A stretch of DNA of 64,000 nucleotides, from contig CM097885.1 of assembly GCA_044892525.1 (NCBI GenBank), positions 12,464,001-12,528,000 on the forward strand, given 5' to 3'. The position numbers were made by a program, and so were the translations under genes. This stretch comes from Schmidtea polychroa (Eukaryota). The notes beneath the pieces are model-generated. The model did no database searches, was not told where the DNA came from, and worked only from the letters and a program-made list of their open reading frames with translations. Below are positions 14,538 to 38,899 of this stretch, one piece after another; the first letter of the stretch is position 1; each line of letters starts with the position of its first letter.

Positions 14538-15319
14538 AAATAAGTTTAATTTTACGTTAATTTAAATTCAATTCAGACTATATAAAAAGAATAAACAATT
14601 ATTTGTATTTTTATAACAAAGTTTTAATTAAATTTTAATTTGAAATCTTTATTAATGAAAAACTTATATGATTATATGATAAAACTATAAAATTTCTTTA
14701 ATTATTGAGGATAATATATTGAATATATTAATTTGTAAAGATATACGTCATTAGTCATAAATAAGTGAGTAATTTGTTCTTGAGATAAGAGCATAAAGAA
14801 TCATGTAATATTCTGAATTCATAATAATTTATGTTACTTAAAAGTGTATACATTAACATATTGAAATTAAAATATAACTTTTTAATGATATACCATATAT
14901 TTGAGCCTTTCAAACTAAATCTATTGGTGGGTTACAGGTGGTCGAATGATTAAGTGCTGCTACCAGCGTAACCCAACATGCAACCTTGTTTTTCCGCTTG
15001 GTACCCGTTGAGTGATCAACGTTGGTACTGTACCAAGGGTTGAGTACCCGCAAAAGGTGAGCGCATCAACGCGCTATAATTGTCGAGTACTCCACGGGTT
15101 CATGGACTACCGTTAGAAGGTTTGTGTCCGATTTCCTCAGGTCCCCTATTCGAAATTGTTTTCCAAACTCTCAACACCTCGATTTTCAGTCACTCAACGT
15201 TTGTAAACAACATACTTCATACATTAATTTAACTAAATTTGTATTTAGACATTAACAATAAACAACCAAAAAAAAAATTTCAATATATCTAGCATAAGTG
15301 ACTGTTCACATCGCGGAAA

Positions 15320-15766
15320 TTACACTGGTATAGATTTTTCTTGTCGCTCATACTCGGCTAACCTAGCCTTCTTTAACTTCTCCCGGATGTTCCGTCCTAA
15401 CCGCTTTCTTTTGGGTTTCTCTTTCGCGGCCGGAGGGTATATTGCTGCTAGTTCCACAGTCAACGGCCGGATTTGGCTTATGGCGGCCCCGTGAACTACT
15501 TGTTCATTTCGCTCGGTTTCTAACGCGCGGAGCTGGAGCTTCAGTGCCCGGATCTCCATCTGATCCTGCGCGGCTTGGGCCTGCAGTTGAAGGACCTGCG
15601 CCACCTTCTTTTTCATATCCTCGGGACTAAACCGGGTGCTTTCTAGTTCCCGGCACCGTCCCTTGAGCTTGTCTACTCGTATGCGGAGCTCCTCGGCCTG
15701 TTTTTGGGCTTCTTCCCTGTCCTTTCGCAAATTTTCAAGTAGTTTGAACACTAGATAAAAATTCAA
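15320..15766 (-). CDS. Orphan coiled-coil protein with basic tail, inside family B copy 1; true start uncertain (possible splice acceptor near 15751)
   Basis: Open for 148 codons in visibly GC-richer DNA; heptad-like E/K/R/Q/L helix and a KPKRKR basic motif. Confidence 0.55.
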   Translation of the reverse strand: MNFYLVFKLLENLRKDREEAQKQAEELRIRVDKLKGRCRELESTRFSPEDMKKKVAQVLQLQAQAAQDQMEIRALKLQLRALETERNEQVVHGAAISQIRPLTVELAAIYPPAAKEKPKRKRLGRNIREKLKKARLAEYERQEKSIPV

Positions 15767-15967
15767 TGATTCATTCTTGCAGCATAACGCTCATTCCATT
15801 ATATAATAAGATCAATATTATAAATAAACATAGTTTCAGATATTAAGCACGCAATTCCTAAGATAATTTATTGAAAGGAATAAAATAATTCGTCACTAAA
15901 ATTAAAGTTTAATTAAGTCATAACTGATGATAATTGCAAAAAAAAATTTGATGATGAGTCAGGTCGG

Positions 15968-16324
15968 TCACTTGCGAGGCCTTCCCCTCTTCCGCGGGGT
16001 TGTCTCGGCCTCTTCTAGGTCCTCTACGGTTTTCCCTTCATTGTTTGCCCGGATTTGCAAGTCGATTTTCCTCAATCGCATCTGGGCTGCTTCTACCTCG
16101 ATGGCCGCTCGGTCGCGGGCCTCTTGCAAAAAATCGTTTGTGGGCTCTGTTTTTACCCACGCTGGGGCGTCCGGTTCCGGCCCACTCCTGATTACTGGGC
16201 CCCAGTTGTCGAGGTCCAAGCCCCGGTTCCAATCATGGATACGGTACCATATGTACCGTGTCCGGAGTCGTGTAAGCATCTGTCGGTCGGCTTCTTCGTT
16301 ACTAACACTGTCAGAATAGGACAT
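15968..16324 (-). CDS. Orphan 118-aa protein ending in an AT-hook-like motif, inside family B copy 1
   Basis: Intact ATG-to-stop frame in GC-rich DNA; C-terminus PRKRGRPRK. Confidence 0.6.
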   Translation of the reverse strand: MSYSDSVSNEEADRQMLTRLRTRYIWYRIHDWNRGLDLDNWGPVIRSGPEPDAPAWVKTEPTNDFLQEARDRAAIEVEAAQMRLRKIDLQIRANNEGKTVEDLEEAETTPRKRGRPRK

Positions 16325-17409
16325 TTCTACAAAAGAGTAATCAAGCCACTTTATACTGATTGTAATACGGCGTTAAACACAGGATTTTGTTGTCCCTTTT
16401 TCCCTTTAAGAATTTAAAAATAAAAAGAAATATTTTATTTTAAGGCTAACATTTATAATCCTAGGAACAATAGAATGAAATTTCATATTTTGTCTATTAA
16501 TAACCAAAAAGAATTTATCAACAATCCTCTTGTTTTAATTAACTAATTTTCCCTAAATTTGTATTTATCACTAAGTGATCATTTAAATTATATTTTATGT
16601 ATTTTAATTTAAATATTATAGCGAATTTGAAATTTCAGGGTTTAAATCTTTTGCCACTAAATTCGGGTACGCTGAGGCGACAGGTATTAACAACGAGCTT
16701 AGCTTCTCGTCTGCTTGCCTTTCCTTCGGTTGTACTCGTCATGAGTGGTATAGTCCGCTTTGATTTGCTTGTAAGTAGTTTAATTTTTTAACCATAGCTT
16801 TTCGATTTTAGAGATATTTGGTGGGAATCTTTCACTCGGATGGAATGACCGGTTGTTCAAAGCCCTAATGGAATTTTATATGACTCTGTGTTGGTATCTT
16901 TAGTTTGCTTTGTATTTAGTGGGGTTAGAAGTTTTGTTGAATAATTTTAATTTGGCATGTTCTTTGGCTAATCGCTTTTGATTTTTGTAAAACAAATTTT
17001 TGTCAGTTATCGATAATTCATGCGACTGATTCCGTGGAGTTCCACGGTTGGTATCGACTGTCCCAATGTATTCCTAGTCCTCAATGAATTGGTTTAGGTT
17101 AATGGGGGTTTTACCTGACTTTTAATTTATGGGGCCGCTAAATTAACTAAGATATATACGTCACTGATGAGCCTGGGTTAAATTAACTTATTCGATACGT
17201 ATAGTTACCTACAGTTACACATGTCTATATATGCGCACCTACTCATGTTATTATTGAATTAATAGTCCTAGCATTTTCTCCGAGGGGGTTACTAAAAATA
17301 GATTTCTGGAATTATGGTCATTTTTTTTGGAGTAAAGGGGTAGGTTCTAAATTTATTCGTGGGGGAAATCCTAAATCGATAATTCAATCAAATTTTGATT
17401 TTTGGAAAT

Positions 17410-17557
17410 TAATAATGAAATAATAGTAATAACAATAATGGTGATAATCATAATGTTGATAAGAATAACACTAGGAAGAATGATCATAGCAATAATTATG
17501 ATAATAATAAAAATGATAATAATAACAAATAAATCATAATAATAATAATAATGATTC

Positions 17558-17622
<65 letters not shown>

Positions 17623-17835
17623 CTAATCATACTGGTACTAATAATAATAGTAACAATAATAATAGTAATAATAATAATAACAATACCAATAATAATAATA
17701 ATAATAATAGTAATAGTAGTAATAATAATAATAATACCATTCATAATACTGGGTAATGAGAATAATAGTAATAATGATGGTAATATCAGCAATAATAACA
17801 ATAATATTAGGGTTAATAATAATAATACTAGTAGT
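17410..17835. repeat. (AAT)n-rich microsatellite inside family B copy 1
   Basis: Imperfect AAT array; counterpart at about 30950-31060 in copy 2. Confidence 0.95.
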
Positions 17836-20800
17836 ATAATTTTATATGGTACAATTCGAAGTTTATATTTCCCATTTTAGAGGTTCCTATTCTATGATTT
17901 AGGAAGTTACTTTTTGTAATTTACAAATTTCTGTTTCTAATTTAAAATTTTCTATTTTCCAATTTATAAATTTATAACTTCTAATTATATATATTATAGT
18001 CTGTAATTTAATAATTTATGACTTTATATTTTATATTTTATAATTTTATATTTTATACTTTATAATTTTATACTTTACGATTTATAATTTTATATTTCGT
18101 AATTTATAATTTTATATTTTATACATTTGTATTTCATAATTTATACTTTTGTATTGTATAATTCATAAATCCATATTTTATAATTTACAAGTTTGTAATT
18201 TAGAATTTTTATAGATTTTGATTTAATGATTCACGATTTCCTATTCGACTTTACATAACTTTTAAGAATTACCTTTGCGTGATCAATATTATTTCCCTAA
18301 ATTTTCGGGTTATAAGTTATATTTTCCGAGGTCCCACATCTACATATAAAAATTGTATACTCAAAATATATAATTGCTAATCTGAATATTTCATTAAGGA
18401 TTTACCTCAATATAGTTATATTTAAGATCTTACAGATATTTCTGACGTTATAACTAATTATTTATATCTTTATGAATATTCTAAAGTGGGAATTCTTAAT
18501 TTTAATCCTTTGGATTTGGAGTACCTATATTTACATTAAATTAACCTATCTAGATTAAGTTCTACTTATACGTATGCCGAATAGCTTTCTCATTTCCATT
18601 ACTTCATCATAAACTCCTATTACAATATCTCGTTCGGCATATGTTTAAGTATAACTGAAATTACTATTATTGACCAACCAACTACATTAATGTGCTGTAG
18701 AATTGTGTGAGATTAGGTATGAGTTCTACTCAGATTAAGACCTTATTGTAGAGATATTTGACATTGATTTTTAATGTTGATTTTAAATTTGTATTGCGTA
18801 CAAGGTCGGGAAGAATATTGCTTCCATGGCCCCACTGTGACCACTTCCACAAACCTTAGTGTTGAGTTTTGAGTCAACCATTTACGGTCGACCTTACATA
18901 AATACAAAGAGTCAGGCGGAGGGTTTCCTCGACCTAACTCCATGGCAGGACCATGAAGTAGTTCGACCTCCGAACTGACCCGAACAAAAAGAGTGTTATA
19001 GATAATCATAATGCATGTGTGCATGAGAAATTGAATTTAAAATTATATGCAGGACCGATCAGAGACGTACTCGGACGCCGCTGATCCGTTGAGAATTACT
19101 AAACATAAAATCTTAAAAATATTTTTAATAGATAAAAGGTCGATATTAATATAATTACATAACATAAAATTACAACAAATCAAAAGGCTTACTAATGATT
19201 CTCAAAAAAAAATTTCAGCAAAATATTGGCATAAAGATTGATTTATGACCGAAACATGTCGGTATATATACCTATTTTGTACACGTGTATGTATTGATGC
19301 ATTAAAACAAACTCGAATTCTTTTTATTCCAGAATTTTCTATTTTACGATTTTGCTATTTTTAATGGCAATTTTTGTGCCATAATTTTTGTTTTTATTTT
19401 TATATTTTTATTTTTTAATTATTTTTCATTAATTTTACGTCCATGATGGATTTGGAACGGTTCCAGAACATTCTATTTTACTTTTAATTTAATTTTTATT
19501 CTAACTGATGTTTTATGAATTTCTCTCTAAGATTTATTATTTTTAATACTAATTTATTTATTTCCTCTAACTTTTATTGTTCTAGCTGGCTTTTGTGATG
19601 GTCATCGCCATTTTAATGGAATGTTCTGGGCTTTTCTGGAATTTTTTCGGTTTTTATCGTCTTTTAAGTTGTTCGAGTCTGTTTTATGCATATCGGTGTT
19701 TATTTGGTTGTTTTTGAGTTCTATTTTTGCATCACTTCTTGCTTTTGTATAATTTTATTTAATTTCTGTGTTTTAGGTTTTTGTTACTTTCTCCTTTAGT
19801 TAATATTGTTTATTTGATGTAATTTTAATATTTAACTAAACTTCTTGCTTTTGCATGTTGTGTACCTGCACCTTTCAGTCACAATTCAAGTTTGGGTCTA
19901 GAAGTCAGTTCTAGCCCAACACTATCACAAAGTAAAATTGGTCAGATGAATCTTTTGTTGAATCCAAAAACAAAGTCGAGAACTTCAGATGCCTTCTAAG
20001 TTCTGAATACATTAGGTCCAAAGTGACGATAAAATACATTTTTCAGTTCTAAACTAATATTAAGATCAATCATGTATTAATGACTAAACACAGAAATAGT
20101 GACTCGTACTAAAAAAAAAGGTCCGTTCCAAATACTCTTTTATTAACTTTTATTATTTACCAATAATTAATTACAGTAACTTTCGGTTTCTTGGGTTCAG
20201 TTAGGTTAAAATTGTTAATGGTAGCCTAGTTTCTTTAATTACCACAAAAACGCATAACTCAATTTACCCAATTAATACCCACCACAAAGTGTCGTTGACA
20301 CTGCATCGACTGGTTGAGAATTAAAAAAAGGTGAGCGCTGTTGTAATGACTGCTTAGTACAATACTTTCTTCGATTCAAACTGAAAGATAGAACATCTTT
20401 CCATGCCCTTTTCCACAAGGTGTATTACACCGTGATTGCAGCTCCTACCTTAGATTTTTACTACTTTAAACTACTAGACCACAAACTATCTCTACCTTAC
20501 TTCCGAAGAAAATGAAATACGAATTTTAAATTTCTAGTCTCCCTGATTAAACTCGTTATTTTAAGACACCTAAAATGATTATAACAATAAATTGATTAAC
20601 TGTCCTGGAAAAAATTGTTAAAGGACTACAAATAAATAAATAAATTAATTAATTATAAAAAATGTATTAAATAAATTAGAAGTATACTCTCTAAGCTCAA
20701 CAGCAAAATATACAATATTGAAAATTTGACAAAGTATTATTTAAGAGCTTGAATAATGATCTCATATCTATATGGATAAATATTCAAACCTTAAAGTTTA

Positions 20801-22303
20801 CTTTAAATAAAAAAAATTACTTGAAAGTCATTTCTAAAATGGCTAAATACAAATAGTTAAACTAGCTAAATAAAATAGCTAATAAATAAATAAATCATTA
20901 AATAGTGGTAAAACTGAATGCATATGAGTAGTTAAATTAACCACATGTATTTCAAAAAATTTCATAAAGAATGACGCATCTATAATTGGTTGTACATACC
21001 AACCCATATTATAAATGCGTTTATTTAGTGCAAACGAGTGTAAATCAAGAATTCCGAGCTCCAGAATGTTTACAATTTTGTATAATGAAATGGTTAGTGA
21101 ACACTTAGCTCCTTTTACACAGTTATTTTACGGGAAAATGTTGAGTTGCGCTCAGAGGTTCAGATATTTCTCACAGACTTAAAATTTAAAGAGAACTGAA
21201 AGAGAAATTAAAATTCATTTTGAAAGATTTGGAACAAAACAGAACATCTCTAGAAGAATTTTTGTCAAAGATGAATTTGTTATTACAGCCTGAATAATAA
21301 TTTTAATAAATACTTTCCCGAAAACTTCTCAAGTAAAAACTGAATAAGAAACTCAATTTCAACTGAAGAAAATGTAGAATATTTAGAACTGTCATGTGAT
21401 GGGGGGCTTCAATATAGAATTATCTTGGCGTTTGAGTTGTTCTGACAAAATTCCTAACATTATGAACTTGATGACGAGAACGTGGATTCTTACCGAAATA
21501 TAAAATTCTTTCATTAATGCAGATAAACGAATTTACAGCTATTGAAAATCAAACAGACAATAGTTCTAGGATTTCCGATTTTTTTGTGAAATCTAGGGCG
21601 GTTTACACTTGAAATTGCTCAGTTTTAGACAAATGCCAAACTTTCAAATCTAGAAGCTTATTGTGAAATTGATAACGAAGATAAAAAAAATAATGAAACT
21701 GGATGGATCAGTTCAAAAGAAGTCAACCCATTATTTTACCTCGACGCATTCTTGAGTTTTTTGGGCGCAGTAACTAAATGTGAAACTGGATTTTAGGTTC
21801 TTTAGGTTCTCACAACGCTGTTTAAATACGGAGCGTGAGGAAAGGATAACTCTATAATTCCATCTATTTATCCGCATCGGAAAAATATTATTCGTAAAAT
21901 TTATAAAATTTGAACAGAAATAAATTTGGAGTTTTTAGTAGTGAATCTTTTGTGCTAGATTGTAATTGTAATAGATAATAAATATTAGTAACATGGTTTG
22001 GAGTTAAATCAATAATTGTGTTATTTTTAAAAAAATTCAACTATTTATTTGATTAACCCATTACCAGCCACTGTACTCACATTTAACTCATTTCAACCCA
22101 TTTCACTACTTTATTCATATGTATTTTATTATATAGATGAGACCGCTCTAGACCTCTTAGATTACGTGTAGTTTTCTTTTGGGCGTTCATTTAAACAAAA
22201 AACACCCGAAGAAAAATTAATTTACAATTAAAATAAAATAGTATTTTAAAATTATAAATATTATAATTATGTTTCTCCATGAGTAAATTTTATATTTACA
22301 AAG

Positions 22304-23203
22304 TTATCGGATCCTAAAACGCTTGCCACAAATTGTTATAATATTTGGATTTTTATTTCGTTTTGTTGGTTTTTGACATTTCGATGAATTTTCACATAGT
22401 TTGCACAATTTTTTGGGAGGACCATTTACACTATCTAGGGGCTTTTTGTAGAATTTTGCCCATTGATTGATTAATTTTATTACAAGTTTTATTTTCATAA
22501 TTCTCATTTGGATGCGCTTGCAAAGATGATAAACTACTTCGTAAATATGGCTCTCTCTGAGATCGACGGATGAAATGTTATTAAATTCTAGAAGAGCTTG
22601 CAACAAAATGGTCCTTTTATCTATGGCAGGTAACTTATTGTCTTTCAATGGTTTTAACCATTCAGCAATTGCTGTTAGAAATTTGCATTCAATTAATATA
22701 TCTTTTATTTTCTTGTCTTTAGGATTCATAAGGATATTTTCCACTTGTTCCAGAATGCCCAATTGTCTCTCGCATGATTCAGTTTTGGAATATAATTTTT
22801 CGTCGGTTTCGCGGGCTAATTGCATTTTGTTTATTAATTAAAAAATAGTTTGTTCGATTGTGTTTTTTCACTCATTCTCTTTTGATGGGCATGAATTCGT
22901 TTCCTTGATTTGTTTCCTATTTGTTTTCTCGCATCTTCAAAGGTGGTTAAAGCATCTGTGTTATAGGAAATTGTTTCGTGAGGACTTCCATTATGGAAAT
23001 TTGCTTTTTGGTTTTTTATTTCGACTGGGTTTTATTATATTTACTTTGATATTATTTTCATTTTGTTTTATTGAAGATTCTTTATTCATTGTTTTAATTG
23101 AGGATTTATTTTCACTTTCCGAAGGGTTTTCATCATCAGAATCGCCAAATAATTCTTTGATTAGTTCTTTAGAATCTTTTTTAATATTTGAATTGTTTTT
23201 CAT
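22304..23203 (-). pseudogene. IWS1: IWS1/Spn1-like (TFIIS N-terminal domain) intronless copy with frameshifts and a stop
   Basis: ELFGDSDDE, then LINKMQLARETD and FLTAIAEWLKPLKDNKLPAIDKRTILLQAL...KLINQWAK. The expected HPNENYENK lies in a shifted frame, and an in-frame TAA precedes the domain. Confidence 0.75.
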
Positions 23204-23705
23204 TTTGAATTTTAATTATTTTTATATCGAAACTTTTAAATCGGCAAAAATTAAATATTTAAATAATTTAATTAAATTTCAAATAATTAAAAATATTATT
23301 TGAAATTATAAAATTTGTGGAACATAATAGTAATCACCAGGCATGAAACCCCTAGGGAATCACAATTCTGGACAAGCCTCTCCTAAAAGGTGTTTTAATG
23401 GGTTTTAATTTTTTTAATTAAATATTTTAATGAAATTATTTTTTTATTATTTTGGGGTAAAAACAGAATTTGATATGCTTTTTGAGTCGAATTTGTCAGG
23501 AATAGCAATAAATTAAATTCACAGAGTCAACTCAAATATATTTCACGAAAAAAAGATTTAAATATAGAGGGAACAAATATAATAAACAACAAACTTAAAA
23601 AAATACAAGAAATAATATAAACATAACAATAATATCGTCCTCATATTTTTTCAATTTTTTATCAGACAAATAAAGAAAGGGAATAATTAATAATATTACT
23701 ATAAT

Positions 23706-24016
23706 TAGCGATGTCAATGGTTACCCAGTTATCTAAATCAAAAATCGACTACCCGTTCGTTCCGTTTATAATTCAAATTCGAAATAAAAAACATAGTAGC
23801 AAAAATCAGCAATTATCTAAAGAAACAAAATTTATTAGATTTGTGCATCAGTTGTTGGCTACAGTCGTTCTACTTCTTCCTGTAATAACAAAGTGCATGA
23901 TGTTACAGGCTAGTGCTATGTCATATCAAGATTGTGGCGTAAACGGGTATTCGGCCACTCGCCAGTCGAGCGGACGGGTAACCGGGAGCACGTTTTCCAA
24001 CTTTTTGCCAGCCTTA
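23706..24016. mobile_element. hAT-type MITE
   Basis: Imperfect TIRs (TAGCGATGTCAA / TAAGGCTGGCAA) and a perfect 8-bp TSD ACTATAAT (23698-23705, 24017-24024). Confidence 0.75.
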
Positions 24017-25764
24017 ACTATAATCATTAATTTAAAATATATTTCCTAAAACTAGACCAAAATAAAAATTAAAATTTCTAGAAAATCTTGTTTGTTTTTA
24101 GTGACATTTGGTTTTTTTCTTCAGGTGCTTTTTGTTTAAATGAAGTGAATATATTATGTAAAAAATAGACTCTTAAATTAAATTTTTATAAATAGTCGAA
24201 TATTTTTAGGATTTTTTCTTTAGAAATGAAATTTTTGCAATATTTTCATGTGTTTTGAAATGGAAAATAGAATTAATTTTCAACTCACATTTTGAGTGAA
24301 TTGTCTTGATCAAAAATTAAAAGTGGTTTTAATTAAAAAGAAATTTATAATTTTAATCATGTTGAGATTATCGGTGAAATGCAAAATTAACAATTATTGA
24401 TCAATCTCCAAATGTCTTGAAAAATTAATAATGTATTATTGTTGTTATTTATGTATATAATATTTGTGTTTATTTCTTGCATTTGTGAACTATTTTCAAA
24501 TTACTTTTATGTTTCTTGATTTGTTAGTGTTAAGTTCTCTCGTTTTTCAAAATGTACTTAATGTTTTTTATTTGTTTTGAATTAAAATTGACTTAAGGCT
24601 CTTTTAGTATTTATTTAACACATTTCGATCAAATTTCATGTTTACCCTGAGTCGAAATCAGTGTTTGCCTAACATCAACTATGGATATTTTTAAAATTTT
24701 CTCTTTGTTATTCTTAACACCTGATTACTGTACTATCAATTTATCTACCATTCCAAATACGATATATCAAACACAAACTCACCATTCTATGCATACATAC
24801 TATTAGGATTCTCATCCGTTGCAACATTAATATCTGTTTCTAAATCACTAAATAATTCCATAAATTTTATTTAATAAATTATACACTCAAAAACTTGTCT
24901 TATCTTTTGTTTGTTATTTAAACAAATTTCAATCTTTCTTTTAAAATATTCTTCAATAAAAATATTTTTTAAATTTAACAAAATTTCTAATTAAATCTTT
25001 AAGAATCTTTCAACTTCTTCATACGCACTACTCACACATGCTTTATAGTGCTCAATAATATTAAGCCTTTATTTTATTTTTTATAATAATTTTTTTTCAT
25101 TATTGAAATTGTTATTTTGCGGCTTGGAGAGTATCAACGATGATGCCAATAATAAGAATAAATTGCGGATATTCTAATGAATTTCAACAAATAACTGTTC
25201 CACTCACATGTAAATATAATTTTGATATTTTAATTTTAAATGTTCATTATTTTGTTTTACTGTACTGATCATTTCAAGAGGTTTTATATAACGAATGACA
25301 AACGAAAACTCTGTTAACCGATTTCTTCAAAGTTTGTCTTGAAATTATTATAATCATTTGCTTTATAAATTATTAATGAAAAAACTTTTAAAGTATTTAT
25401 ATTTATTACGAATAAATAAATGTATAAATTATTATAAACAATTCCAAATATCAGAAAAACGGTTGCTAGTAACTGAGTTCGAGGATTTCAGCCTGAAGGC
25501 TCCCTTATTATTAGGTCCTTACACGATTGTGTAACTTGCGTAATATCTACGTCACTGGCAGGGCATTACTTAAATCTAATTTTTTATTCCTTTAAGTCAA
25601 TTTTACATAATATTTACATGAGATGAACATAAATGTTGAGGAAACAACGGGGTCGTCATAAGGTAAATTCGACTTCAACACGACTCAACACAATTAATTG
25701 GAATTTGTCCAATAAAACAAATGAAATTCAATGTTAAAACACAACAAATTATTAAAAAAAATTT

Positions 25765-26718
25765 TTATTGAGATCTCCAAATCTCTGGATTTTCTATATT
25801 TAGTTTTTGAAGACTTTTACATTTCTCAATAAATTCCGGACTTTCCAATGCCAGCACGAACATCTTATTCTGTAATGACCGGGCCTTATTGAAGTATCCT
25901 TTGATCAATTTAGAAAAGTTTTGATTGAATTTATAAGTGTCATATTTGACATGGATTGAAACAATCATATGCAACGTTTGAAAGAGCGACAACAAGGTTG
26001 AACATGTTACGGAAATTGTTGCCATTACATACCTTTTTTCATAGCAAGAATGGATTTCGATAATGAGATTCGATTCTATCAAACTTGCATATGGCAAGTA
26101 GGCATCGCTCTTTAGAAATTTGTAGAAAGTATAATTTCCCGGTATAAACTGACAGAACTTTGCAATACCGGCCCAGAAATTCAGAAGCGAAACCACTAAA
26201 CTACAAGATGTAATAATCTGCAACGTCAAGAATACATAATAGTGCTTGTATATAAACATTAATATTTCGAACCTCCAACGGTATTGTATGTCTACAATGT
26301 GCTTCGACACGAATGCTCCAAGGCCATTCAAATGATCCCTCCTGGTAAAGAATAGTTGGTTTGAGATAACTCCACCAAATCCGATGAGGATTAGAATACA
26401 AATTGACCGGGTAATCATCAACTGTGCTAAAGTTTGAAAAACCACTCTGTTGATTTTACAAAATGATTGAGGATTCTGTATCACTTTCATTGACAAATCT
26501 TTATGTTTCATAAAAAATGGACAATATGACTCGAATTTAATTTCGATTTCGTTCAAAAACACTACGTGAATAGTGCTAAATACAGAAGTCAAGATTGAAT
26601 AAATCAAAGTCGCAACTAATAGTTTATTCCATGAACATAAGACTCGACGTCTTTCTTGAATAAGATCGACTTTGATTGGAAATATATTGGGAAATAAACT
26701 ATCCAACAAGCGATTCAT
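25765..26718 (-). CDS. Intronless four-transmembrane protein with innexin/pannexin/LRRC8-like topology
   Basis: About 317 open codons from the ATG at 26718; four hydrophobic segments; two Cys in each putative extracellular loop (ESYC...SFC and KFC...HSC). Confidence 0.6.
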   Translation of the reverse strand: MNRLLDSLFPNIFPIKVDLIQERRRVLCSWNKLLVATLIYSILTSVFSTIHVVFLNEIEIKFESYCPFFMKHKDLSMKVIQNPQSFCKINRVVFQTLAQLMITRSICILILIGFGGVISNQLFFTRRDHLNGLGAFVSKHIVDIQYRWRFEILMFIYKHYYVFLTLQIITSCSLVVSLLNFWAGIAKFCQFIPGNYTFYKFLKSDAYLPYASLIESNLIIEIHSCYEKRYVMATISVTCSTLLSLFQTLHMIVSIHVKYDTYKFNQNFSKLIKGYFNKARSLQNKMFVLALESPEFIEKCKSLQKLNIENPEIWRSQ

Positions 26719-27206
26719 TAAAGTAAATAAAATCAATTAAATAAATAAACTTTTAATATATATTACTAATTTTTATAATTATAAACACAATATACCAAAG
26801 CGCAATAAATAATGGCCTTAATGACAATAAATAACAGCCTCAATAATATTAAAAACTAACCAGTAATAAATGTGTTTGTGTGTCATTAGCAAAAGTGACA
26901 ATATATAAAGTGGCAATAGACAATGCTTTTCATCGCATTAACTATATCATTTAACTTATCAGTTGTGCTGATTAACAAGTTAGACTTTTTTTAAATAATT
27001 ACATATTTTAATGTAATAATAAATTTTAATAGTCATTTTTATAAGGATTCTACGTAACTGCATGAACAAATACTGTAAAGGATACCATAAAAGGTTATCA
27101 AATACTTTAACTTAATCTGATGATTCATTTTCATATTTCACTTTTATATAGTTTTAAATATATAGACTAAATAAATAAACTAAATGACCAACTTAATTTT
27201 ACAATT

Positions 27207-27720
27207 TGTTGAGGATATCTGAATAATAAATGATATGAAAAATAAATAAAATTACCTCGGAGAAAATCTTCATGACAAACGGAACGATCTATGGAAACGC
27301 GGAGAAGAAGGCGGATGTAAAACGAAGCAAGAGATGAGAACGATAAATCACACAAAAGAAAGCAAACAAGAAGTTAAAACAAAGGCCATCATTAATTAAC
27401 AAGTACAAAAGAGGAAAAATGAATTTCAAATTCTAAAATCAAAACAGGAGAAAATTTATATCTTGACAGTTTGTCAAAGATATCAAAATTTCAAAAAAAG
27501 TTGGCCTAACAAAAAAAGAGAAAAAAGCAAGGCATATTTTGACATCTGTCAGAGATAGGGTAGGGACAGTGGCAAATGCGGGAAGGAGAAAAATGGAAAA
27601 ACAAAATTATCTCAAGTACCGCAAATTTAACAAACTATTAAAGGGAAAGATACAGAGAGTTAAAAATTTAAATAAAAGAGTTCAGAAGTTAGAGTCGAGG
27701 AAAAAATTTGAATTTGGATT
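27207..27720 (-). mobile_element. Family A element, truncated inverted copy
   Basis: Begins TGTTGAGGATA (reverse complement of the family A 3' end); homologous to about 3800-4308. Confidence 0.75.
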
Positions 27721-29799
27721 AAACTGTGGGGTTATGGATTGGTGATAATATTTGTAAAGTTAAAATTCTTACCCTGACTCCAAGCGTGTCATTGACTGAC
27801 CCACAAATAACACTTGACAACAGAAATTTTTATTAATTATCACAAATAATTTTCACTTTACACTGACAATCAATTCAACACTCAATACAACAATTCAACA
27901 ATTCGATACAATGCTTATTACAACACTCAGTGAGGAATAGCACTTGTGTACAACACCGGATTGAAAGATCACTAATTACTGATTGGTTTTGTTGGGCTAG
28001 AACTGATTTCTAGACCCAAAGTTTGGAATGGGACGAAATGTGTCAGTACACAACACGCATACCCAGCATTAAGTTTACTTAAATAAAAATATATAAAACA
28101 CCAAGTAAACAATGATAATAGAGAGATAATATACCCAAAAATAAAACATCTGAATTAAAAATAAAATAAAACACGAGCAAGAAGTATTACACGAAAACTT
28201 ACTCAAATATAACCGAAAGACATAAAACAACAAAAAACAAATTCGAATAAAGGCGATTAGTAAAAATTAAAAAAGAAAATTAAAGAAAATCTTCATAAAA
28301 TCTTACGTAAAGAAAATTACATCGATATTTTGAATAAAAATCCAGAACAATTCATAAAAATGGCGAAATCCATCATGACGGCCAAACGACCCAATAAAAT
28401 TTATAAAAAATAAATATTTTAGTTTAAAAAATAAATATTTTAGAAAAGAAATCATAAAAAACAATTTAAAAATAAGAAATAGATTGAATTTAGCATGGAC
28501 TGTTTTGGAAATGCTGAAATCCATCATGGAGGCAAATTTAATAAAAAATAATTCGAAAATAAAATTTCAAAAATAAAAACAAAAATTCTTACTGAAAAAT
28601 CGCCATCAAAATCGATAAAAATTATAAATCGAATGTTCGAGAATTAAAATAATCTGAATTTGTTTTACTGCATCAATGCACGCATGTATACTTACACGTC
28701 AAACAGAGGCTATATAAACTAACACATTTCGTCACTTTTTAAGCAAGGAAAAAAATGAAAATGAATATTTTTACTCTTATGCCAAATTTTTGATTTTGAT
28801 TTTTCTGAGATTGTAAGTAAGGACGATTTCATTGTGAATTATAAATTATTATTATTGAAACCTTGTTTTCATTATTTCTATTTAATTATAGAGGTGTAGA
28901 TTTGAATGAGATCGTCGGTTATCAATGATTTTGAAGCGAGATCCCAGCCAAACCTGCACCTATGCACTTTATCATTTATGAATGCACAGTTCATAATGAT
29001 TTCGGGTCATCGACCCTACATGCACTAAAATCATAATCTTAACCAGAGGTCGCCACGAACTATTGGTGTTTAACCATGAGTAGGGCGTATAAATCCTTCT
29101 TGGTAGTTGGCATAGTCACAGGGACTATGCGGACGAAATAATTATGGGAAACTAATTGTGGATACATATTGCAATAGGGCCTATCGTACCGTACTCAGTG
29201 TAGTCGGGAAAGTAGGTAAATTTTAATTAAATCGACCTTTTCGTTAATTTACATACCTAAATTAACACTTAAATTATACTATTTTGCACACAACATTAGG
29301 AACTGATAAACGGGGAATATCCCCTGACTCAAATTTCACACAATACAACATGCTAGTGTAGCTGGTTATTTCTAAACGAATCCCTCTTAAACTATAAATT
29401 CAATGTGAACCTAAGAAACTAATTAACTCAAAATAACAGGGAGATCCCTGCGCAAATTTTTTTAAGGCAATTAAAGACTTAAAAATTTTGAACCATTCCC
29501 TGTAAGAATACTGCAACCTAAAGTTCATGCGATGAGTAGGACCTAAGATGATATAATCTCAATCGCACTGGTAAGCGAACTAATATCTATAGATGCCCAC
29601 AAAATAACCTATTTTGATGCAAACTAAATTTCTCTATCGTAATGGTCTTGGTATGCGCAAATTCCCGTAGACATATTGATAAAGTCTCTTTATCTATAAA
29701 CTACTAATATTATATCTATAACTTATAAGTTCGGGCAACATCTTCACATTATTCTACACTAAATTAAATAGACTCTAAACTAACTATAAAAATACAAAT

Positions 29800-30615
29800 C
29801 GTAAACCCATAAAAATATAAATTATCCTCTCAATTTCATAAAAATATGAATTATACTTATAGATTTAATTTCTTCAAAATATAAATTATGATTAGTTATA
29901 AAAGTATAAATTATAAATTTAATTTCCTAAGAATATAAATTACAAATTTATATTGACTGAAAAATTATAAATTATAACTCTAAGTTGATTGTAAAAGTAT
30001 AAATTATAATCCTAATTTCATAAAAATATAAATTATAATTAGTTATAGAAGTATAAATTATAAATTTAATTTCCTAAAAATATAAATTACAAATTTACAT
30101 TGACTATAAATTATAAATTATAACTCTAAGTTGATTGTAAAAGTATAAATTATAATCTTAATTTCTTCAAAATATAAATCATGATCTTAAAAGTATAAAT
30201 CATAAAATTATATTAGTCTTAGAACATAAACTATAAATTTAACTTAACCTCATAAAAATATAAATTATAAACTTAAAAGTATAAATTATAAAGTTATATT
30301 AGTTTTAAAAATATAAATTATAAACTTAACTTCATCAAAATATAAATTATAAAATTATATTAGCTTTAAAATATAAACCATAAATTTAACTTCATAAAAA
30401 TATAAATTATAAACTTAACAATATAAATTATAAAATTATATTAACTTTAGAAATATAAACTATAAATTGAACTTCACCAAATATAAATTATAAACTTAAA
30501 AGTATAAATTATAAAATTATATCAGTTCTAAAATATAAACTATAAATTTAACTTCATAAAAATATAAATTATAAAATTATATTAGCTTTAAAATATAAAC
30601 TATAAATTTAACTTA
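29800..30615. repeat. AT-rich satellite (TATAAATTATAA core) inside family B copy 2
   Basis: Many degenerate units; a shorter reverse-complement counterpart lies at about 17940-18230. Confidence 0.85.
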
Positions 30616-31734
30616 ACTTAGATTGCCTTTAACATCATAGTTGAAAATTTTTCATCAAAGACCCCCCATAAACCATATAGTCATCAACTACCACCTAAAT
30701 ATACTAAATTAGCTTATCTTAATATATATTTAACTTATATTATATTTTAAAATATAAATTGAAAATTTTCATAAATGACCCCCTTCAAATTATGTAGCCA
30801 TTAACTATTCCTTAGGTATACTGAATTGTATCATCTTCGTATAGAGTCAAATTATATTTCAAACCAAAAAAAAAAAAATAATAATTCCATAAATTTTCGT
30901 AAATGATCCCCCCATATGTAGTAATCTTATAAAAATATAAATTTACATTTATTATTATTATTATTGTTATTATTATTATTATTATTATTATTAGCATTGT
31001 TACCAGTAACATTATCACTCTTACTATTATTATTACTATTATCATTATTATTATTATATTATTAAAATAATTATCTTTATTTCATAAAAATAAAATTATA
31101 AAACAAATTATTGATTTTGGGATTCCCCTATCTCTAAATTTAGTTTCAATGGCCCTATCTTCCAATAAAATTACGGAAAATCACTAAAATCTATTTTTAG
31201 TAACACCCCCCCCCTGAAAACGACATCAATATTATTAATTTAAATTATATCCATATATGTATATATGTGTGGGTGTATATGTATGTGTATATATAAGTGG
31301 ATATGTGTATGTACATACCGATTTATAAAACAACCTTATAACAATACGATAACCTTCCCCCTCAAGACCCCTGTTATGTGATGGAACGAGGATAGAGTAG
31401 TTTACTGAAGTAATTTAGTAGAATCATTTATTAATTTATTAAAATTATTGGATTTATTTTTAACTAGATCAAAAGAAGAAAAACAAAGACTAAGTTTATT
31501 GATTTCGATCATCAAATTTATTCACATAATTGTTTCTTTGAATCATATTCATACCAAAAAGTCCTTCGAGCTCAGTTGATGGACCATCCCGATGAAATAC
31601 ATTTCCTGGGGTTGGAAAATGGAAAACTTATTAAAATATCTTTCAGAATTTCTTTTAGATTTCCACAATTAAATAATTCCAAATTATTTCTCACAAATAT
31701 ATTCGATCAGAAAGAATTTTAATATTTTATTTAA

Positions 31735-32403
31735 TTACAACATCCTGAATTTATTTCTTTGCTTGGCTGCTTTAAGATCATAAATGGGCATTTTTCATTT
31801 ATTAATCGGATAAAATCAGTTTTTCTGTACAACCTTTACATTCTTCACCCCAGCTTTCTAATATTTTTTGAGATCTTTAACGCGAGCTTTGTTTAGATTA
31901 ATACCAGTAAGATCAATAGGTTTGTCTGAAAAATAGTTGAATTAATATTTAAAATCTTAACTGAACATACCATATTTTAATTCACAAATTTGTGAATCAA
32001 TTGCTTTTAGTTTTTCAGACTTTTTCAGCGGGCATAACCCAACTCAAAGGCTGAGACAAATGTTTTACAATATATGCAGTAGATGTTACCAATCCTCCAA
32101 TATAATAACACTAAAAATAAATTACAATTTTATAGTAATCAGTTATAATACCTTACCAGACTTTATTCTTTTCCTTTACTTGTTTTGCTCATCTTTTTGA
32201 ATTTATTTTCAATATTTTCGATATTTGTACTTTCATCTCCATCTAGACTATCTTTCAGGCGTCTCACAAACTTAACACAAACTGAACAATTTTTAAATAT
32301 AATAATAATAAGTGCCAAATACCTTCGCAATTATTTTCATTAACTGTAGCTGACATTACATAGTAAACAATGATTAGAAAAGAAAAACTGATAAAATTTT
32401 CAT
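31735..32403 (-). pseudogene. MANF: MANF/ARMET copy, 4 exons (32403-32323, 32281-32157, 32110-31971, 31925-31735), with frameshifts and a stop
   Basis: Signal peptide, then [47 protein letters not shown] and WGEECKGCTE; introns of 41, 46 and 45 nt. Confidence 0.9.
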
Positions 32404-35400
32404 TGCAAAATATTACTAATATAAAAAAAATGGTTTGTTAAAAAAAAATAATTAGTTAAAACAAGTTTAAAATACTTCAAACTGACGTATAAGTTTTGTT
32501 TAAAATGTAAGTAACGAGTATTGTAAAATTAATTTAATATTATTATAAATTTTGAATTAAAATTTTCTTAAAATTCTAGAAAAAAATCTATTATTAATAG
32601 AAAACAAATTTTTAAAAATAAATAAGGTTTGAGTCAATTTGAATTTTCTAGAAGTATCTCTTAAAATTATATAGGGAATTGTTTTGTAACAGTTATTGAT
32701 GTATTTTGAATTTATTTAACTTGAATTAAAAATATAATATTAACAAAAATGTATTGTGAGATTTTGATTGTTGATCTAACCATCTCTCTATAACTACCCG
32801 GGCTCAACAAAGGGGAGTGTCATTGTAGGTCAACTAGGACAGTCATAGTCACCGCGAAATACGCTTAGTCAAATAATACGCGGTCATAAACAATCAGGGT
32901 TCTTGTAAAGTTATTATATTTTGTTGTTGTGGTTGGTGAAATTTCTGACCCTTATTTGTATGTTCACTAATATATAAGTTGTTTGTTTTTTGATTATTTT
33001 CTAATTAAATTCATTATTCCCAAAAATTTCTTAAGGTATGTTTAATAAACTTTGGTTATGTTTCACTTAATTTATACTCAAACATGTTAGATGGGGTATT
33101 GTATGAACAGGTTTTGATAGATTAATGTATGATTCCTGATGACTTATGATCGTTTGAGGATAGAAAGTTTGTATAAGCATAGTTGAGGAAGTGATTATAA
33201 TAAGGGACCTGCGTAAATCGGACATACATCTTCTAACGATAGTCCGTGAACCCATTAGAGTGCTCGACAATTACAGTGCAAGTAGTGCGCTCACTTTTTG
33301 CGAGTACTCACCCTCTTGATACAGTACCAACGTTGATCGCTCAACGGGTATCAAGCGGTAAACAATGTTGTATCTTGGGTTACGCTGGTAACAGCACTAA
33401 AGAGCAAAATATTTGATCATCGGTAACCCACCAGTTTATTGACTGGAACTTTGAGTTGTTTGTTTTCTTTGACCTTCTTCGACAACTTTATTTAAATATT
33501 CAAATAACTTTTTTTGTTTATTTCTCAACTAATTCTTTTTGAAAATTCCCCAACAAATTGTTTTCCAATAAATACTCGTTTCAATGGTTTCTATAAAATT
33601 TCTCACACAATTTCTCCGTTAATTTTCTCCGTTAGTTTATCTTCTTTTTCCGTAGACTCATGACTCATTTTCCCTTTCGTTCTCTAATAAATTTCCGTCT
33701 AATATTTGTCTGATTTTGTGTCGCTTTCTCGGTTAACGGTTTCTCTTTATATAGCTTGTTTTATTTGTGGCACTCGAGATAATCAAATGTTTTCTATTTT
33801 TCTTTCTCCTGCATTTTTCATTTTATCTCTGACTGATATAGAGATATTTTTCCCTTTTCCTTTTTTGTTAAGCCGCCTTCTCTCAGAAATTCCGCTATCT
33901 TTGACAAGCTGTCAAGAGATACGGCTTTTTCCAATGTTTTTTTTCTAGAATTTGAAATTCCTTTTCTCCTTTGTACTACGAGAGCTATTCTTCACGTAGT
34001 GACGTAATAAGCTCTGGATAATTTTCTATACTAGAATTAATTGGCTGTAATTGCAACTAGTACAATCTATTGTGATTAGATAAAGGTTTATTTTGATTGA
34101 GAATTGTTAATTTGTGAATTGATAAAACACACTTGGAGTCAGAGAGGTGTGTCATTTTTTGATTTTTTCCATATTTTATTTTTTCTTTTTTGTTTACTCA
34201 TTTCTTCTACTCGCTTCACTTCCCATGATTGTGGAACAATACAACTTTTATTTTATTCATTTCATCACCCCAATCATTTTATTTAATTTACCAATATTTA
34301 TTCAATATTTATTATATAGATATCCTCAACAAAATTATTAAAACAAGAAACTTTTGTACTGGATTTATTTAAATACTAACTAGTGCAAATCGATATTTCA
34401 AATAATTTTTTGAAACCTCAACATTATATTTGTTCATTTTCCCGTATTTGATTGATGGTTTTTACATGTTTTAATGTCAAATCGACTTTAGATTATGTCT
34501 GAATGTTGTGTTCACAAATTTTTTTCTTTCATCAATTTAGACATCACAATACATCTGAATTATGTCCCGCGATATTTTGGCATTCCCATGTTTAAATCAT
34601 TACACTTTGAAGTTGAATAACTCTTACTTGAGTGACTGCACTTGGTTTTCATATATCTAAATTTAATCAAAAGGCTCAAATTTATTTAAGTTATCAACAT
34701 ACAGTAAAACCGAAAGATCAGATTCACTTAGTAATGGGGGATTTATATATTGCTATTATTAACTTAATGACCTTAACTATTTGTTGTTAATACCTTCGTT
34801 TCGTGACCTATCGTCATGACGGATTAACAAAAGGCGTCCTTAATGTCAAACGTAAAGGATTGATTAAAAAGTAAGCATAAAAAGTAAGTATTCCGAATGT
34901 TGAGGTCTCAAAATGTGAGTAATTACAACAATCATGTTAACAAATTATTTCATCATTTTTAATATCACTTCTTAAGAATCTTTAAAAACTCTTGAACACA
35001 GTAACAAGGCCATTTTCTTCATGACTGTTTTTAAATTAAGGGTTTAAAAAAATTTTAAATGGTGAGATTTATTTTATGATTTTAAATCTTTGCTGTGTTA
35101 TGAATTTATACACATCACTTTTTCGTTTATATTCTAAGCATGAAAATATTTAACAAATAAAATTTTTTTTAGAAATAACTTTAATTAACAAAATCTTTGA
35201 AAATATTATTATCTAAGATAATTTGGATGAGAATAAATTTGTATTTCGCACGTCGTTTTAATAATATATAGAAAGCGTGTAATATTTTAAAAAATTGTCA
35301 TAAAAATAATTTTCATTTTATCAAGTTTAACTCTATTTAAATAAACATTTTAAACTTATCATTTAATTGATTATAATATTTTGATTTATTAATTATGGGT

Positions 35401-37100: not shown

Positions 37101-37117
37101 AAAAAAAACAGAAGCAA

Positions 37118-38060
37118 TAAGTATCACACGAAAACTTACTCAAATATAACCGAAAGACATAAAACCACAAAAACAAATTCGAATAAAGGCGATTAGTAAA
37201 AATTAAAAAGAAAATTAAAGAAAATCTCCATAAAATCTTACGTAAAGAAAATTATATCAAAATGTTGAATAAAATTCCAGAACAATTCATAAAAATGGCG
37301 AAATCCATCATTGCCGCCAAACGACCCAATAAAATTTATAAAAAATAAATATTCCAATTTTAAATATAAAAATTTAAGAAAAAGATTCACAAAAAAACAA
37401 TTTAAAAATAAGAACTAGATTAAATTTAGCATGGAATGTTCTGGGAATGCCGAAATCCATCATGGAAACAAATTTAATAAAAAATAATTCAAAAATAAAA
37501 TTTCAAAAATCAAATCAAAAATTAATACGTCAAAATCGCCATCAAAATTATTAAAAATTATAAATCGAATGTTCTAGAATTAAAATAATTCGAATTTGTT
37601 TTACTGCATCAATACATGCATACATACTTGCACACCAAACATAGGCTATATAAACTAATACATTTCGTCACTTTCCAATGTTTACTCTTATGCCAAAATT
37701 TTGATTTTGATTTTTCTGAGATTGTAAGTAAGGACGATTTCATTGTGAATTATAAATTAATATTATTTAAACTTTGTTTTCATTTTTCTATTTAACTATA
37801 GAGGTGTAGGTTTGAGTGAGATCGTCGGTTATTATCGATTTTGGAGCGAGATCCCAGTCAACCCTGCACCTATGCTTTTCTTTTGTTGTGGGGTTCACAC
37901 CCTCAACGATTATGGGTCTATGACCCAACCTGCACTAAAATGAATTTTTACTACCAGAGGTCGCCACGAACAAATAGTGTTTAACCAAAGAGTAGAGCGC
38001 ATAAATCCATCTTGGTAGTCGGCATAGTCATAGGGCTATGCGGACGAATTAACTATGGAA
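37118..38060 (+). mobile_element. Family B element, partial copy 3
   Basis: Closely similar to about 28180-29150. Confidence 0.85.
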
Positions 38061-38899
38061 ATTAACGGGTCTATGATCCCCACATAACATTAGCGCTTAT
38101 CGTAGTGAGCATAGTGCTTACATCACACTAAGACTCAATAAACGGAGGAAAGCTCCAAACTTAAAATAATCACAGTTCTACAATTAGTTGACATTTTTAT
38201 ATGATATATATGGTCAATGATTTATTTTCTGAAAATATAAAGGTACAAAACAGGGGTTATAGTTACTGATTCCAATTTAAACAAAAAAGGTCAATTACTA
38301 AGGCAGAATGCTGCCCAAATTTTTGAAAGTCATTAAAAACAACCGAATATATGATAGGTTTAGAAATAAATTATCAAATCAATTCTTAACTCTAGGAATT
38401 GAATTATGCCAAAAATGAAAAAATTAAGATGTATAAATTGATAAAATAATGGAAACCTTTCTATAGAAAAACTTAGTTAATTATTTTCTGATTCATAGTC
38501 TTCAAGCTTTTTACCAAATACAATGGAAAAGAAATCAGTGGTGAAATTTGAAAATAAAGTTCTTATAATTAATTCAGTAGTTAATTCATTCTAGATGCCA
38601 GATTAGATGTCACTGTTGTTGGTCATTGTTATTTGATGGAAGGACACGAAGTCAGAGCTAATTGTAATCCTAATAGTCTTGCCAGAATTTTCAAAACTTA
38701 AATCGGGAAAGTACAAAACATTTTTTTATATTTAATATATTAATTTATTATGCTTATAAAAATAAACTAAATTTAATAGGAACATAAAAATTCAAATTCA
38801 TCTCATTAACTTTATATAAAATTCATTTAAGTTAATATCACATGGAATGACTAAAATAATAAAATAAGAGAATAGCGATTATTGAATACTAAGTGCATG

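What the first reader, a model, noticed from the sequence alone, without database searches (positions are those of the whole stretch)
14925..33433. A ~5-kb enzyme-less mobile family (TG...CA, 4-bp TSD) with a fixed chassis and different cargo in each copy
Seen: two full copies (14925-19921 minus, TSD CTAT; 27990-33433 plus, TSD GTTT) and a partial third (37118-38060). The full copies share the same order: TGTTGGGCTAG end, about 1.1 kb arm, TATAAAT satellite, AAT microsatellite, a CTATTTTTAGTAAC.CCCC block, a 1.7-2 kb variable region, and a conserved 230-bp GC-rich end finishing CCCACCA. The variable region holds orphan ORFs in copy 1 and a MANF gene copy in copy 2. No RT, integrase or transposase is visible. 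Known: TG...CA ends with 4-bp TSDs are the signature of gypsy-type integrases (Ty3/gypsy LTR elements and Ginger DNA transposons). Inference: these are either very large solo LTRs or a non-autonomous Pack-type gene-carrying family.
Basis: partly seen in the sequence, partly recalled or inferred. Interest (0 to 1): 0.85.

Follow-up and report, generated by a model that had tools for sequence, protein, structure and literature searches.

The report
Giant retroelement ends that carry genes
Both 5-kb repeats are lone end-repeats (LTRs) of a giant retrovirus-like element that is likely the known planarian element Burro: one type holds two conserved reading frames that likely make the element's own small proteins, and the other has taken up two host genes in turn and spread mostly broken copies of them to hundreds of places.

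Summary
Both copies are solo LTRs, not a Pack-type DNA transposon. The same ends flank 21-kb and 36-38-kb elements in 8 of 9 pairs fetched, with 4-bp TSDs, 99.5-100% LTR identity and a tRNA-Pro primer site. The large element has the published Burro domain order (gag, MATH, env, PR, RT, RH, IN, ankyrin). The small one is a gag-only derivative.

The variable region is subfamily-specific, not copy-specific.
- Copy 1's two 'orphan' ORFs are conserved across autonomous subfamilies (dN/dS about 0.15-0.17, conserved splice acceptors, no outside homologues). They are likely LTR-encoded accessory proteins.
- In the gag-only lineage the same slot holds antisense host DNA. NDUFA7 came first, with introns that were later lost precisely (152 junction matches). 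MANF then replaced most of it, keeping introns and upstream DNA (208 matches; 41 of 41 copies broken).

Burro is known. The LTR genes, gag-only lineage and serial capture were not found in nine paper searches, but the original Burro paper and Repbase were unavailable. The scan earlier noted Burro and BEL/Pao LTR capture elsewhere in this genome, not these features. New variant; interest 0.6.

The parts
14925..19921 (-). Copy 1: solo LTR (4,997 bp) of the autonomous Burro-type lineage, TSD CTAT
   Evidence: About 95% identical to both LTRs of three 36-38-kb elements; TSD
15968..16324 (-). ORF A, 118 aa, ends in a basic KRGRPRK motif (AT-hook-like; motif name recalled, not called by Pfam); YAG acceptor ending at 16327
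   Evidence: Conserved in 11 aligned LTRs at 33-92% identity; dN/dS median 0.17; acceptor
15320..15751 (-). ORF B exon, 141 codons from 15745, predicted long helices plus basic tail; acceptor AG ending at 15751
   Evidence: Conserved in 15 aligned LTRs at 36-92%; dN/dS median 0.15; model pLDDT 86, pTM 0.38
17288..18208 (-). Chassis of copy 1: CTATTTTTAGTAAC block, AAT microsatellite, AT-rich satellite
14925..15150 (-). Conserved GC-rich 3' end of the LTR (likely R/U5; inferred), followed by the primer site in full-length elements
   Evidence: 81% to copy 2
27990..33433 (+). Copy 2: solo LTR (5,444 bp) of the gag-only lineage, MANF variant, TSD GTTT, inserted into an older repeat
29808..31204 (+). 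Chassis of copy 2: satellite, AAT microsatellite, CTATTTTTAGTAAC block
31625..32971 (-). Captured host MANF genomic segment, antisense to the LTR: about 570 bp upstream DNA, exons 32403-32323, 32281-32157, 32110-31971, 31925-31751, three introns kept; broken by a stop at codon 66 and frameshifts in exons 1, 3 and 4
   Evidence: Alignment to the intact gene in L047
31489..31619 (-). Remnant of the earlier cargo: 3' end of host NDUFA7
   Evidence: 89% to host locus L143
32990..33076 (-). Remnant of the earlier cargo: DNA upstream of host NDUFA7
   Evidence: 84% to L143
33199..33433 (+). Conserved GC-rich 3' end of copy 2
37101..38065 (+). Older fragment of the 5' arm of a gag-only-lineage LTR, no termini
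   Evidence: 85% to copy 2; groups with that lineage in the 5' arm tree

Best explanation
Both window copies are solo LTRs of a giant Gypsy retroelement group that is likely Burro, and the 3' third of the LTR is an exchangeable slot that holds two likely accessory genes in the autonomous lineage and captured antisense host DNA in a gag-only lineage. Shown: the ends flank full elements with a tRNA-Pro primer site and 4-bp TSDs; the large element encodes gag, env, PR, RT, RH and IN; the small one keeps a selected in-frame fusion of the polyprotein's first ~860 and last ~520 residues; ORFs A and B are under purifying selection; NDUFA7 was captured once with introns, lost them later, and was then largely replaced by MANF. 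Inferred: solo LTRs arose by recombination between an element's two LTRs; the gag-only lineage borrows protease, RT and integrase from autonomous copies; ORFs A and B are read from spliced subgenomic RNAs and act in the nucleus; the slot lies in U3, so each replication round copies it into both LTRs; capture most likely came from reverse transcriptase switching onto an unspliced host antisense RNA, which would give the backwards, intron- and promoter-keeping cargo seen; MANF then rode along as a dead passenger.
For: Paired LTRs with outer TSDs in 8 of 9 candidate pairs, 99.5-100% identical. 396 exact LTR-primer-site junctions, control 0; the site is complementary to genomic tRNA-Pro(TGG). Pfam domain order matches PMC6431247 section 7. 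Gag-only ORF: Retrotrans_gag and zf-CCHC only, dN/dS 0.17 and 0.26 against the large polyprotein. 7 of 7 internal regions with matches next to cargo-lineage LTRs lack PR/RT/IN; 5 of 6 next to ORF A/B LTRs run on into pol. The 5' arm tree splits 15 ORF A/B LTRs from 18 cargo-lineage rows, 100/100. ORF A 36 of 36 and ORF B 37 of 37 scored pairs have dN/dS below 1; YAG 1-2 nt before the ATG in 9 of 9 and YAG|TG in 12 of 13. MANF: 41 of 41 copies share the codon-66 stop, 40 of 41 keep all introns. NDUFA7: intron-keeping and intronless copies share both junctions.
Against: No RNA evidence for the splices, the start site or the U3/R/U5 borders was obtained. No sequence comparison with Repbase GYPSM1 or Burro1-4 was possible. 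BIR and BCL2 motifs reported for Burro were not found by Pfam at E<=0.01. There is no polypurine tract before the 3' LTR (9 purines in 20 nt), which is atypical. One cargo-lineage internal stretch (L135) matched nothing and one ORF A/B element (L137) is interrupted after residue 516. Several autonomous-type LTRs lack or break ORF A (L087, L090, L097, L117, L118). DNA-level repair would leave the same cargo as template switching. Only one intron-keeping NDUFA7 LTR copy was seen among 26 stretches.
Confidence: 0.85

Rival explanations
1. A non-autonomous Pack-type DNA transposon (Ginger-like) with short inverted ends that picks up a different host fragment in each copy.
For: TG...CA ends with a 6-of-7 inverted match and 4-bp TSDs; intron-keeping genomic cargo is what Pack elements carry (recalled); most copies are unpaired (2,708 starts against 396 primer-site junctions).
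Against: The units are the direct terminal repeats of gag-pol and gag-only elements with a tRNA primer site; cargo is shared by whole subfamilies.
Confidence: 0.02
2. Same solo LTRs, but ORFs A and B are not working genes of the element: they are an old captured fragment, or conserved for RNA-level reasons.
For: No homologue or function found; ORF A is missing or broken in several LTRs; the gag-only lineage transposes without them in cis.
Against: Synonymous sites are near or at saturation while proteins stay 33-92% identical; acceptors and the basic tails are kept across subfamilies.
Confidence: 0.1
3. The host DNA entered by DNA break repair (gap filling from a chromosomal template) in one genomic LTR copy, not by reverse-transcriptase template switching; retrotransposition only amplified it.
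For: The cargo keeps introns and 0.6-1 kb of upstream DNA; a 5-base microhomology at the MANF-NDUFA7 junction (read by eye) fits either route.
Against: Both cargos lie antisense in the same slot, and NDUFA7 lost both introns precisely, which needs an RNA-templated step at least once. Two same-direction captures are too few to exclude chance.
Confidence: 0.4
4. The cargo is kept because it serves the element, for example as a promoter, a silencing decoy, or for a time a working NDUFA7 retrogene.
For: Two LTR copies (L127, L128) hold an unbroken 127-codon intronless NDUFA7 frame; the stem of the intronless lineage has 1 change in 329 coding sites against 31 in 581 flank sites (Fisher p=1.5e-5, on a trio of copies chosen by me); cargo variants reached 150-200 places each.
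Against: All 41 MANF copies and 9 of 11 NDUFA7 copies scored are broken or lack the start; replacement of the coding part from host mRNA explains the same deficit; other gag-only variants with no recognisable host gene are equally young.
Confidence: 0.2

Closest known systems
[quoted passage not shown] 2018; as described in PMC6431247 section 7, read whole)
   Same: Total over 30 kb, internal region about 25 kb, one polyprotein of about 4,800 aa (4,773 codons stop to stop here, 4,873 aa published) with gag, zinc knuckles, MATH, in-frame env between gag and protease, PR-RT-RH-IN, ankyrin; thousands of copies.
   Different: The section read does not mention genes inside the LTR, a 21-kb gag-only lineage, host genes in the LTR or the missing polypurine tract. 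BIR and BCL2 were not detected here by Pfam. The original paper's figures and supplements, which may show some of this, were not held.
TR-GAG non-autonomous LTR retrotransposons of plants (PMC4350172, abstract and outline only)
   Same: LTRs plus one gag-type ORF, no enzymes, apparently still mobile.
   Different: TR-GAGs are under 4 kb and in plants; this one is 21-22 kb, in an animal, its ORF fuses both ends of the parent polyprotein, and its LTRs carry host DNA.
LTR-mediated retroposition by template switching (Derr 1991, Tan 2016, as reviewed in PMC5470649, passages)
   Same: Host gene sequence taken into an LTR element and copied with it; repeated switches give chimeras.
   Different: There the cargo is an mRNA copy lying between LTR sequences. 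Here it lies inside the LTR itself, antisense, with upstream DNA and (MANF) introns, and is amplified to hundreds of places.
Complex retroviruses with genes in or overlapping U3: MMTV sag, lentiviral nef, foamy virus bel/tas (recalled, no call)
   Same: Small accessory ORFs in the LTR reached by splicing.
   Different: No sequence or fold similarity found; two ORFs lie wholly inside a 5-kb LTR of a Gypsy element, and divergent versions (33-46% identical) sit on near-identical backbones (polyprotein 96-97% identical).

Membership tests
Ty3/Gypsy LTR retrotransposon (solo LTR) | Same sequence occurs as paired direct repeats around an internal region, TG...CA ends, TSD at the outer ends | tested here: met
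   8 of 9 candidate pairs; the ninth (B4) is a tandem duplication. 28 of 33 unpaired complete LTRs have an exact 4-bp TSD.
Ty3/Gypsy LTR retrotransposon (solo LTR) | tRNA primer-binding site after the 5' LTR | tested here: met
   396 exact junctions; complementary to the 3' end of genomic tRNA-Pro(TGG); starts 8 nt from the LTR end.
Ty3/Gypsy LTR retrotransposon (solo LTR) | Domain order PR-RT-RH-IN | tested here: met
   Pfam on the natural frame in L026-L027.
Ty3/Gypsy LTR retrotransposon (solo LTR) | Polypurine tract before the 3' LTR | tested here: not met
   9 purines in the last 20 nt in both elements tested; a 13-bp complement of the primer-site region stands there.
Burro / GYPSM1 | Over 30 kb with one ~4,800-aa polyprotein | tested here: met
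   35.8-38.0 kb in 3 of 3; an unbroken 4,773-codon frame in 1 of 3, split in the other two.
Burro / GYPSM1 | MATH, in-frame env before protease, ankyrin repeats | tested here: met
   MATH_2, Monjiviricetes_fusion, Ank_2 in that order.
Burro / GYPSM1 | BIR and BCL2-like motifs | tested here: inconclusive
   Not found by Pfam at E<=0.01 in one polyprotein; published calls used other methods.
Burro / GYPSM1 | Sequence identity to the Repbase or Burro1-4 reference | not testable with these tools
   No Repbase or Dfam here; Grohme 2018 not held.
TR-GAG-like non-autonomous element (copy 2's parent) | One gag ORF, no pol | tested here: met
   1,479 aa, gag and zinc knuckle only; no PR/RT/IN match in 7 of 7 internal regions that matched.
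TR-GAG-like non-autonomous element (copy 2's parent) | Under 4 kb, plant | tested here: not met
   20.9-22.0 kb. It works like a TR-GAG but is not filed as one.
Ginger / Pack-type DNA transposon | Unit moves by its own inverted ends, with a DDE-integrase parent between the same ends and no LTR parent | tested here: not met
   Parents are LTR elements; no integrase inside any of 112 LTR stretches extracted (representatives read by ORF listing, part of that output cut).

The most novel reading that the evidence does not exclude
Burro is a complex retrovirus-like element whose LTR carries a swappable two-gene regulatory cassette (a small AT-hook-like nuclear protein and a coiled-coil protein of no known family). 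Its gag-only satellite lineage uses the same slot as a serial gene trap that takes whole host genes with their promoters backwards, can strip their introns through a sense-strand RNA step not covered by the standard model, kept one (NDUFA7) as a working retrogene for a time, and now makes antisense RNA against MANF and NDUFA7 from hundreds of loci.
Probability: 0.3. Interest if true: 0.82.

Novelty: new variant of a known kind. Interest (0 to 1): 0.6.

Why it matters
It turns an apparent new transposon into parts of a known giant element, but adds three testable things. First, two selected proteins with no known relatives encoded inside a Gypsy LTR, as in complex retroviruses. Second, an animal gag-only lineage that is very young and abundant. 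Third, an ordered natural record of gene capture into an LTR, including precise intron loss from an antisense passenger. In practice, about 200 MANF-like and 150 NDUFA7-like pseudo-copies at roughly 85-97% identity would confound read mapping, small-RNA assignment, RNAi design and gene counts for these two genes in this genome.

Tried and rejected
Expression: no RNA holder was listed. Four contig runs laid on an LTR-plus-leader stretch showed no joint at the predicted acceptors among the rows shown, and one guessed-RNA run lacked cover over most of the LTR; neither is used as evidence.

Homologue searches for ORF A: 0 of 8,000 candidates, 0 in 1.84 billion representatives, no Atlas hit, no fold match from a low-confidence model. 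ORF B: 1 unnamed ENA protein at 49% among 6,865 candidates, only generic coiled-coil look-alikes; its model was not sent to a fold search.

I first read the two Pfam hits in L017 as two NDUFA7 exons. One search shows they are one intronless, frameshifted frame.

A possible third, antisense ORF upstream of ORF A was dropped: the DNA is conserved but splice signals and frame are not.

The slot contents of variants L103, L111 and L120 gave no Pfam hit (37 of 39 frames empty; the two hits were NDUFA7). The top 40 genome matches to L103's segment were all 95-100% copies, not opened one by one; parts of it match autonomous-type LTRs, so it is not counted as host cargo.

B4 was rejected as an element. 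Grohme 2018 could not be read.
Full report
Observation. The two full copies, their ends and their TSDs are exactly as reported. Copy 2 splits an older repeat; two uninterrupted paralogues in the window show the empty site with a single GTTT. The third piece, 37101-38065, is an end-less fragment of the 5' arm. The window lies in a 781-Mb genome whose four contigs C1-C4 are 93-272 Mb. From AT content and the element found I infer a dugesiid planarian; I did not test the species.

What the repeat is. The 3' ends of both copies recur genome-wide, often as same-strand pairs about 16 kb or 30 kb apart. I fetched nine pairs. Eight are full elements: direct repeats starting TGTTGGG and ending CCCACCA, a 4-bp TSD at the outer ends only, and the same internal motifs at the inner ends. 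The ninth is a tandem duplication. Paired LTRs are 99.5-100% identical in the parts compared, so the insertions are recent. The 5' LTR is followed, after 8 nt, by a site complementary to the genome's tRNA-Pro(TGG). There are 2,708 exact LTR starts and 396 exact LTR-primer-site junctions, with reversed controls at 0. Of 33 complete LTRs with neither inner motif, 28 have an exact 4-bp TSD. Of the five misses, one is a parsing artefact (one search shows its TSD), one abuts a decayed primer site and three differ by one base. Both window copies are solo LTRs.

Two lineages. Copy 1 is about 95% identical to the LTRs of 36-38-kb elements. One of three has an unbroken 4,773-codon frame with zinc knuckle, MATH, viral fusion glycoprotein, protease, RT, RNase H, integrase and ankyrin domains in that order. 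This is the layout given for Burro/GYPSM1 in PMC6431247 (section 7 read whole); BIR and BCL2 were not detected. Copy 2 belongs to 21-22-kb elements with one 1,479-aa ORF holding only gag and zinc knuckles. That ORF matches residues 96-960 (72%) and about 4,255-4,773 (55-58%) of the large polyprotein, with everything from MATH to ankyrin gone, and it is under selection (dN/dS 0.17 and 0.26). Among internal stretches tested, 7 next to cargo-lineage LTRs were gag-only and 1 matched nothing; 5 of 6 next to ORF A/B LTRs ran on into pol. A tree of the first 700 bp separates the two lineages with full support (33 rows; bootstrap not fully settled).

The slot is subfamily-specific. I extracted 112 LTR stretches and clustered their 3' parts. 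To reduce bias I fetched 40 of the first 48 listed primer-site places. The 8 left out were four already held, three carrying NDUFA7 or MANF, and one unexamined; one fetched region was mis-sized. 38 gave an LTR end with a primer site. Of these, 29 carry ORF A and/or B, one more has them only in a nested LTR, 3 carry NDUFA7 and 5 carry other sequence. MANF was absent from these 38, partly through my omission: 12 of the first 100 listed primer sites lie within 2 kb of a MANF hit (read by eye).

Copy 1's ORFs are likely real element genes. ORF A (118 aa) and ORF B (141 codons) align across 11 and 15 LTRs at 33-92% and 36-92% identity. All scored pairs give dN/dS below 1: 36 of 55 pairs for A, median 0.17, and 37 of 105 for B, median 0.15; the rest were saturated at synonymous sites, and one frameshifted ORF A was left out. 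A YAG precedes the ORF A start by 1-2 nt in 9 of 9 LTRs printed, and YAG|TG opens ORF B in 12 of 13. That points to two alternative splice acceptors (inferred). ORF A ends in KRGRPRK in most copies, an AT-hook-like motif by recall that Pfam did not call. ORF B is predicted to be long helices with a basic tail. No outside homologue was found apart from one unnamed protein 49% identical to ORF B. Several LTRs lack or break ORF A, and expression was not shown.

Copy 2's cargo is a serial capture. One MANF locus among those fetched is intact and outside an LTR: 178 aa, introns of 41, 46 and 45 nt. The LTR copies carry that locus antisense, from about 570 bp upstream to the 3' UTR, and show the empty site of a solo LTR that has since landed upstream of the host gene. 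A MANF 26-mer occurs 208 times, the host included. All 41 copies aligned share a stop at codon 66 and have at least one frameshift; 40 keep all three introns; median dS to the host is 0.049. So there was one capture, broken before it spread. A sister variant holds NDUFA7 in the same place. Its host locus has two introns. Of 26 LTR stretches checked, 24 show intron 1 precisely absent, 1 was not covered there, and 1 (L151) keeps both introns; the intronless junction occurs 152 times. L151 shares the 5' junction with 4 of 4 and the 3' junction with 3 of 4 intronless copies displayed, so capture came with introns and they were lost afterwards. Copy 2 keeps NDUFA7 remnants on both sides of MANF: MANF replaced the middle of the older cargo.

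How it most likely works. Replication is standard Gypsy: tRNA-primed reverse transcription and integrase insertion (established knowledge, consistent). The gag-only lineage must borrow enzymes (inferred). Whatever lies in the LTR is doubled at each round and survives as a solo LTR after recombination, which explains the copy numbers without any benefit to the host. For entry of the cargo I favour a template switch onto unspliced host antisense RNA over DNA repair, about 55 to 45; both fit intron and promoter retention. The NDUFA7 intron loss needs a spliced RNA of the opposite strand to be copied in. The stem of the intronless lineage has 1 change in 329 coding sites against 31 in 581 flank sites. 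That fits either later replacement from host mRNA or a period of selection; these counts cannot separate the two.

Known and new. Burro is published. Gag-only elements are described in plants (PMC4350172, abstract and outline) and template-switch capture by LTR elements is reviewed in PMC5470649 (passages). PMC8532177, PMC11410931 and PMC13238120 (passages) mention Burro without LTR detail. Nine searches (listings only unless named above) found no report of Burro LTR ORFs, a gag-only Burro, or MANF/NDUFA7 capture. Grohme 2018, its supplements and Repbase could not be seen and may hold part of this. Earlier scan notes record Burro and sense, spliced host fragments in BEL/Pao LTRs of this genome (unchecked by me apart from the Burro layout); look-ups with ORF A and the MANF cargo found nothing.

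Verdict: a real feature and a new variant of a known kind. Interest 0.6.

Noticed in passing
L004-L006 and L025-L028, both internal ends of full-length elements: No polypurine tract. The 25 nt before the 3' LTR can pair over 13 bp with the primer-site region (-23.8 and -26.1 kcal/mol; best of 2,000 random internal 30-mers -22.8), in both lineages. Suggests RNA circularisation or an unusual plus-strand primer.
   Followed up: partly
L067 and L047 (G000:C2:64440804-64446086): The intact host MANF gene now has an autonomous-type solo LTR (TSD ATAT) 423 bp upstream of its start codon; the captured copies show the empty site, so capture came first.
   Followed up: yes
L114 with L138; L110, L121, L123: Elements whose polyproteins are 94-97% identical carry ORF A/B versions only 33-79% identical, and the 5' arm and 3' end trees group rows differently: the cassette appears to be swapped between lineages. 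Only 5' LTRs were read.
   Followed up: partly
L127, L128 (G000:C2:19044578 and 19052374): Two LTR copies hold an unbroken, intronless 127-codon NDUFA7 frame; a candidate retrogene inside an LTR.
   Followed up: partly
L103-type elements: A gag-only variant with 15 places identical over 871 bp, mostly in pairs about 15.6 kb apart: a very recent burst.
   Followed up: no
G000:C1:85863248-85896298 and C1:199542937-199575054: Three LTRs in tandem at 16-kb spacing, and single LTRs with internal-region motifs on both sides (L055, L056, L061): head-to-tail elements sharing an LTR.
   Followed up: no
L021-L024, L029-L032, between the polyprotein and the 3' LTR: Four to five further ORFs of 240-530 codons on both strands, shared by the three large elements; not annotated here.
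   Followed up: no
L152 (G000:C1:130.90 Mb onward): A tandem tRNA-Pro(TGG) array with 475-bp spacing; 2,161 exact matches genome-wide.
   Followed up: no
window 13953-14537 (-): ORF of 194 aa resembling a deoxynucleoside-kinase/NDUFA10-type protein by eye, just beside copy 1; recalled resemblance, not tested.
   Followed up: no
window 2722-5397 (+) and 9153-9882: Integrase-like and other ORFs of another mobile element, and a 14/29-bp GC-rich tandem array.
   Followed up: no
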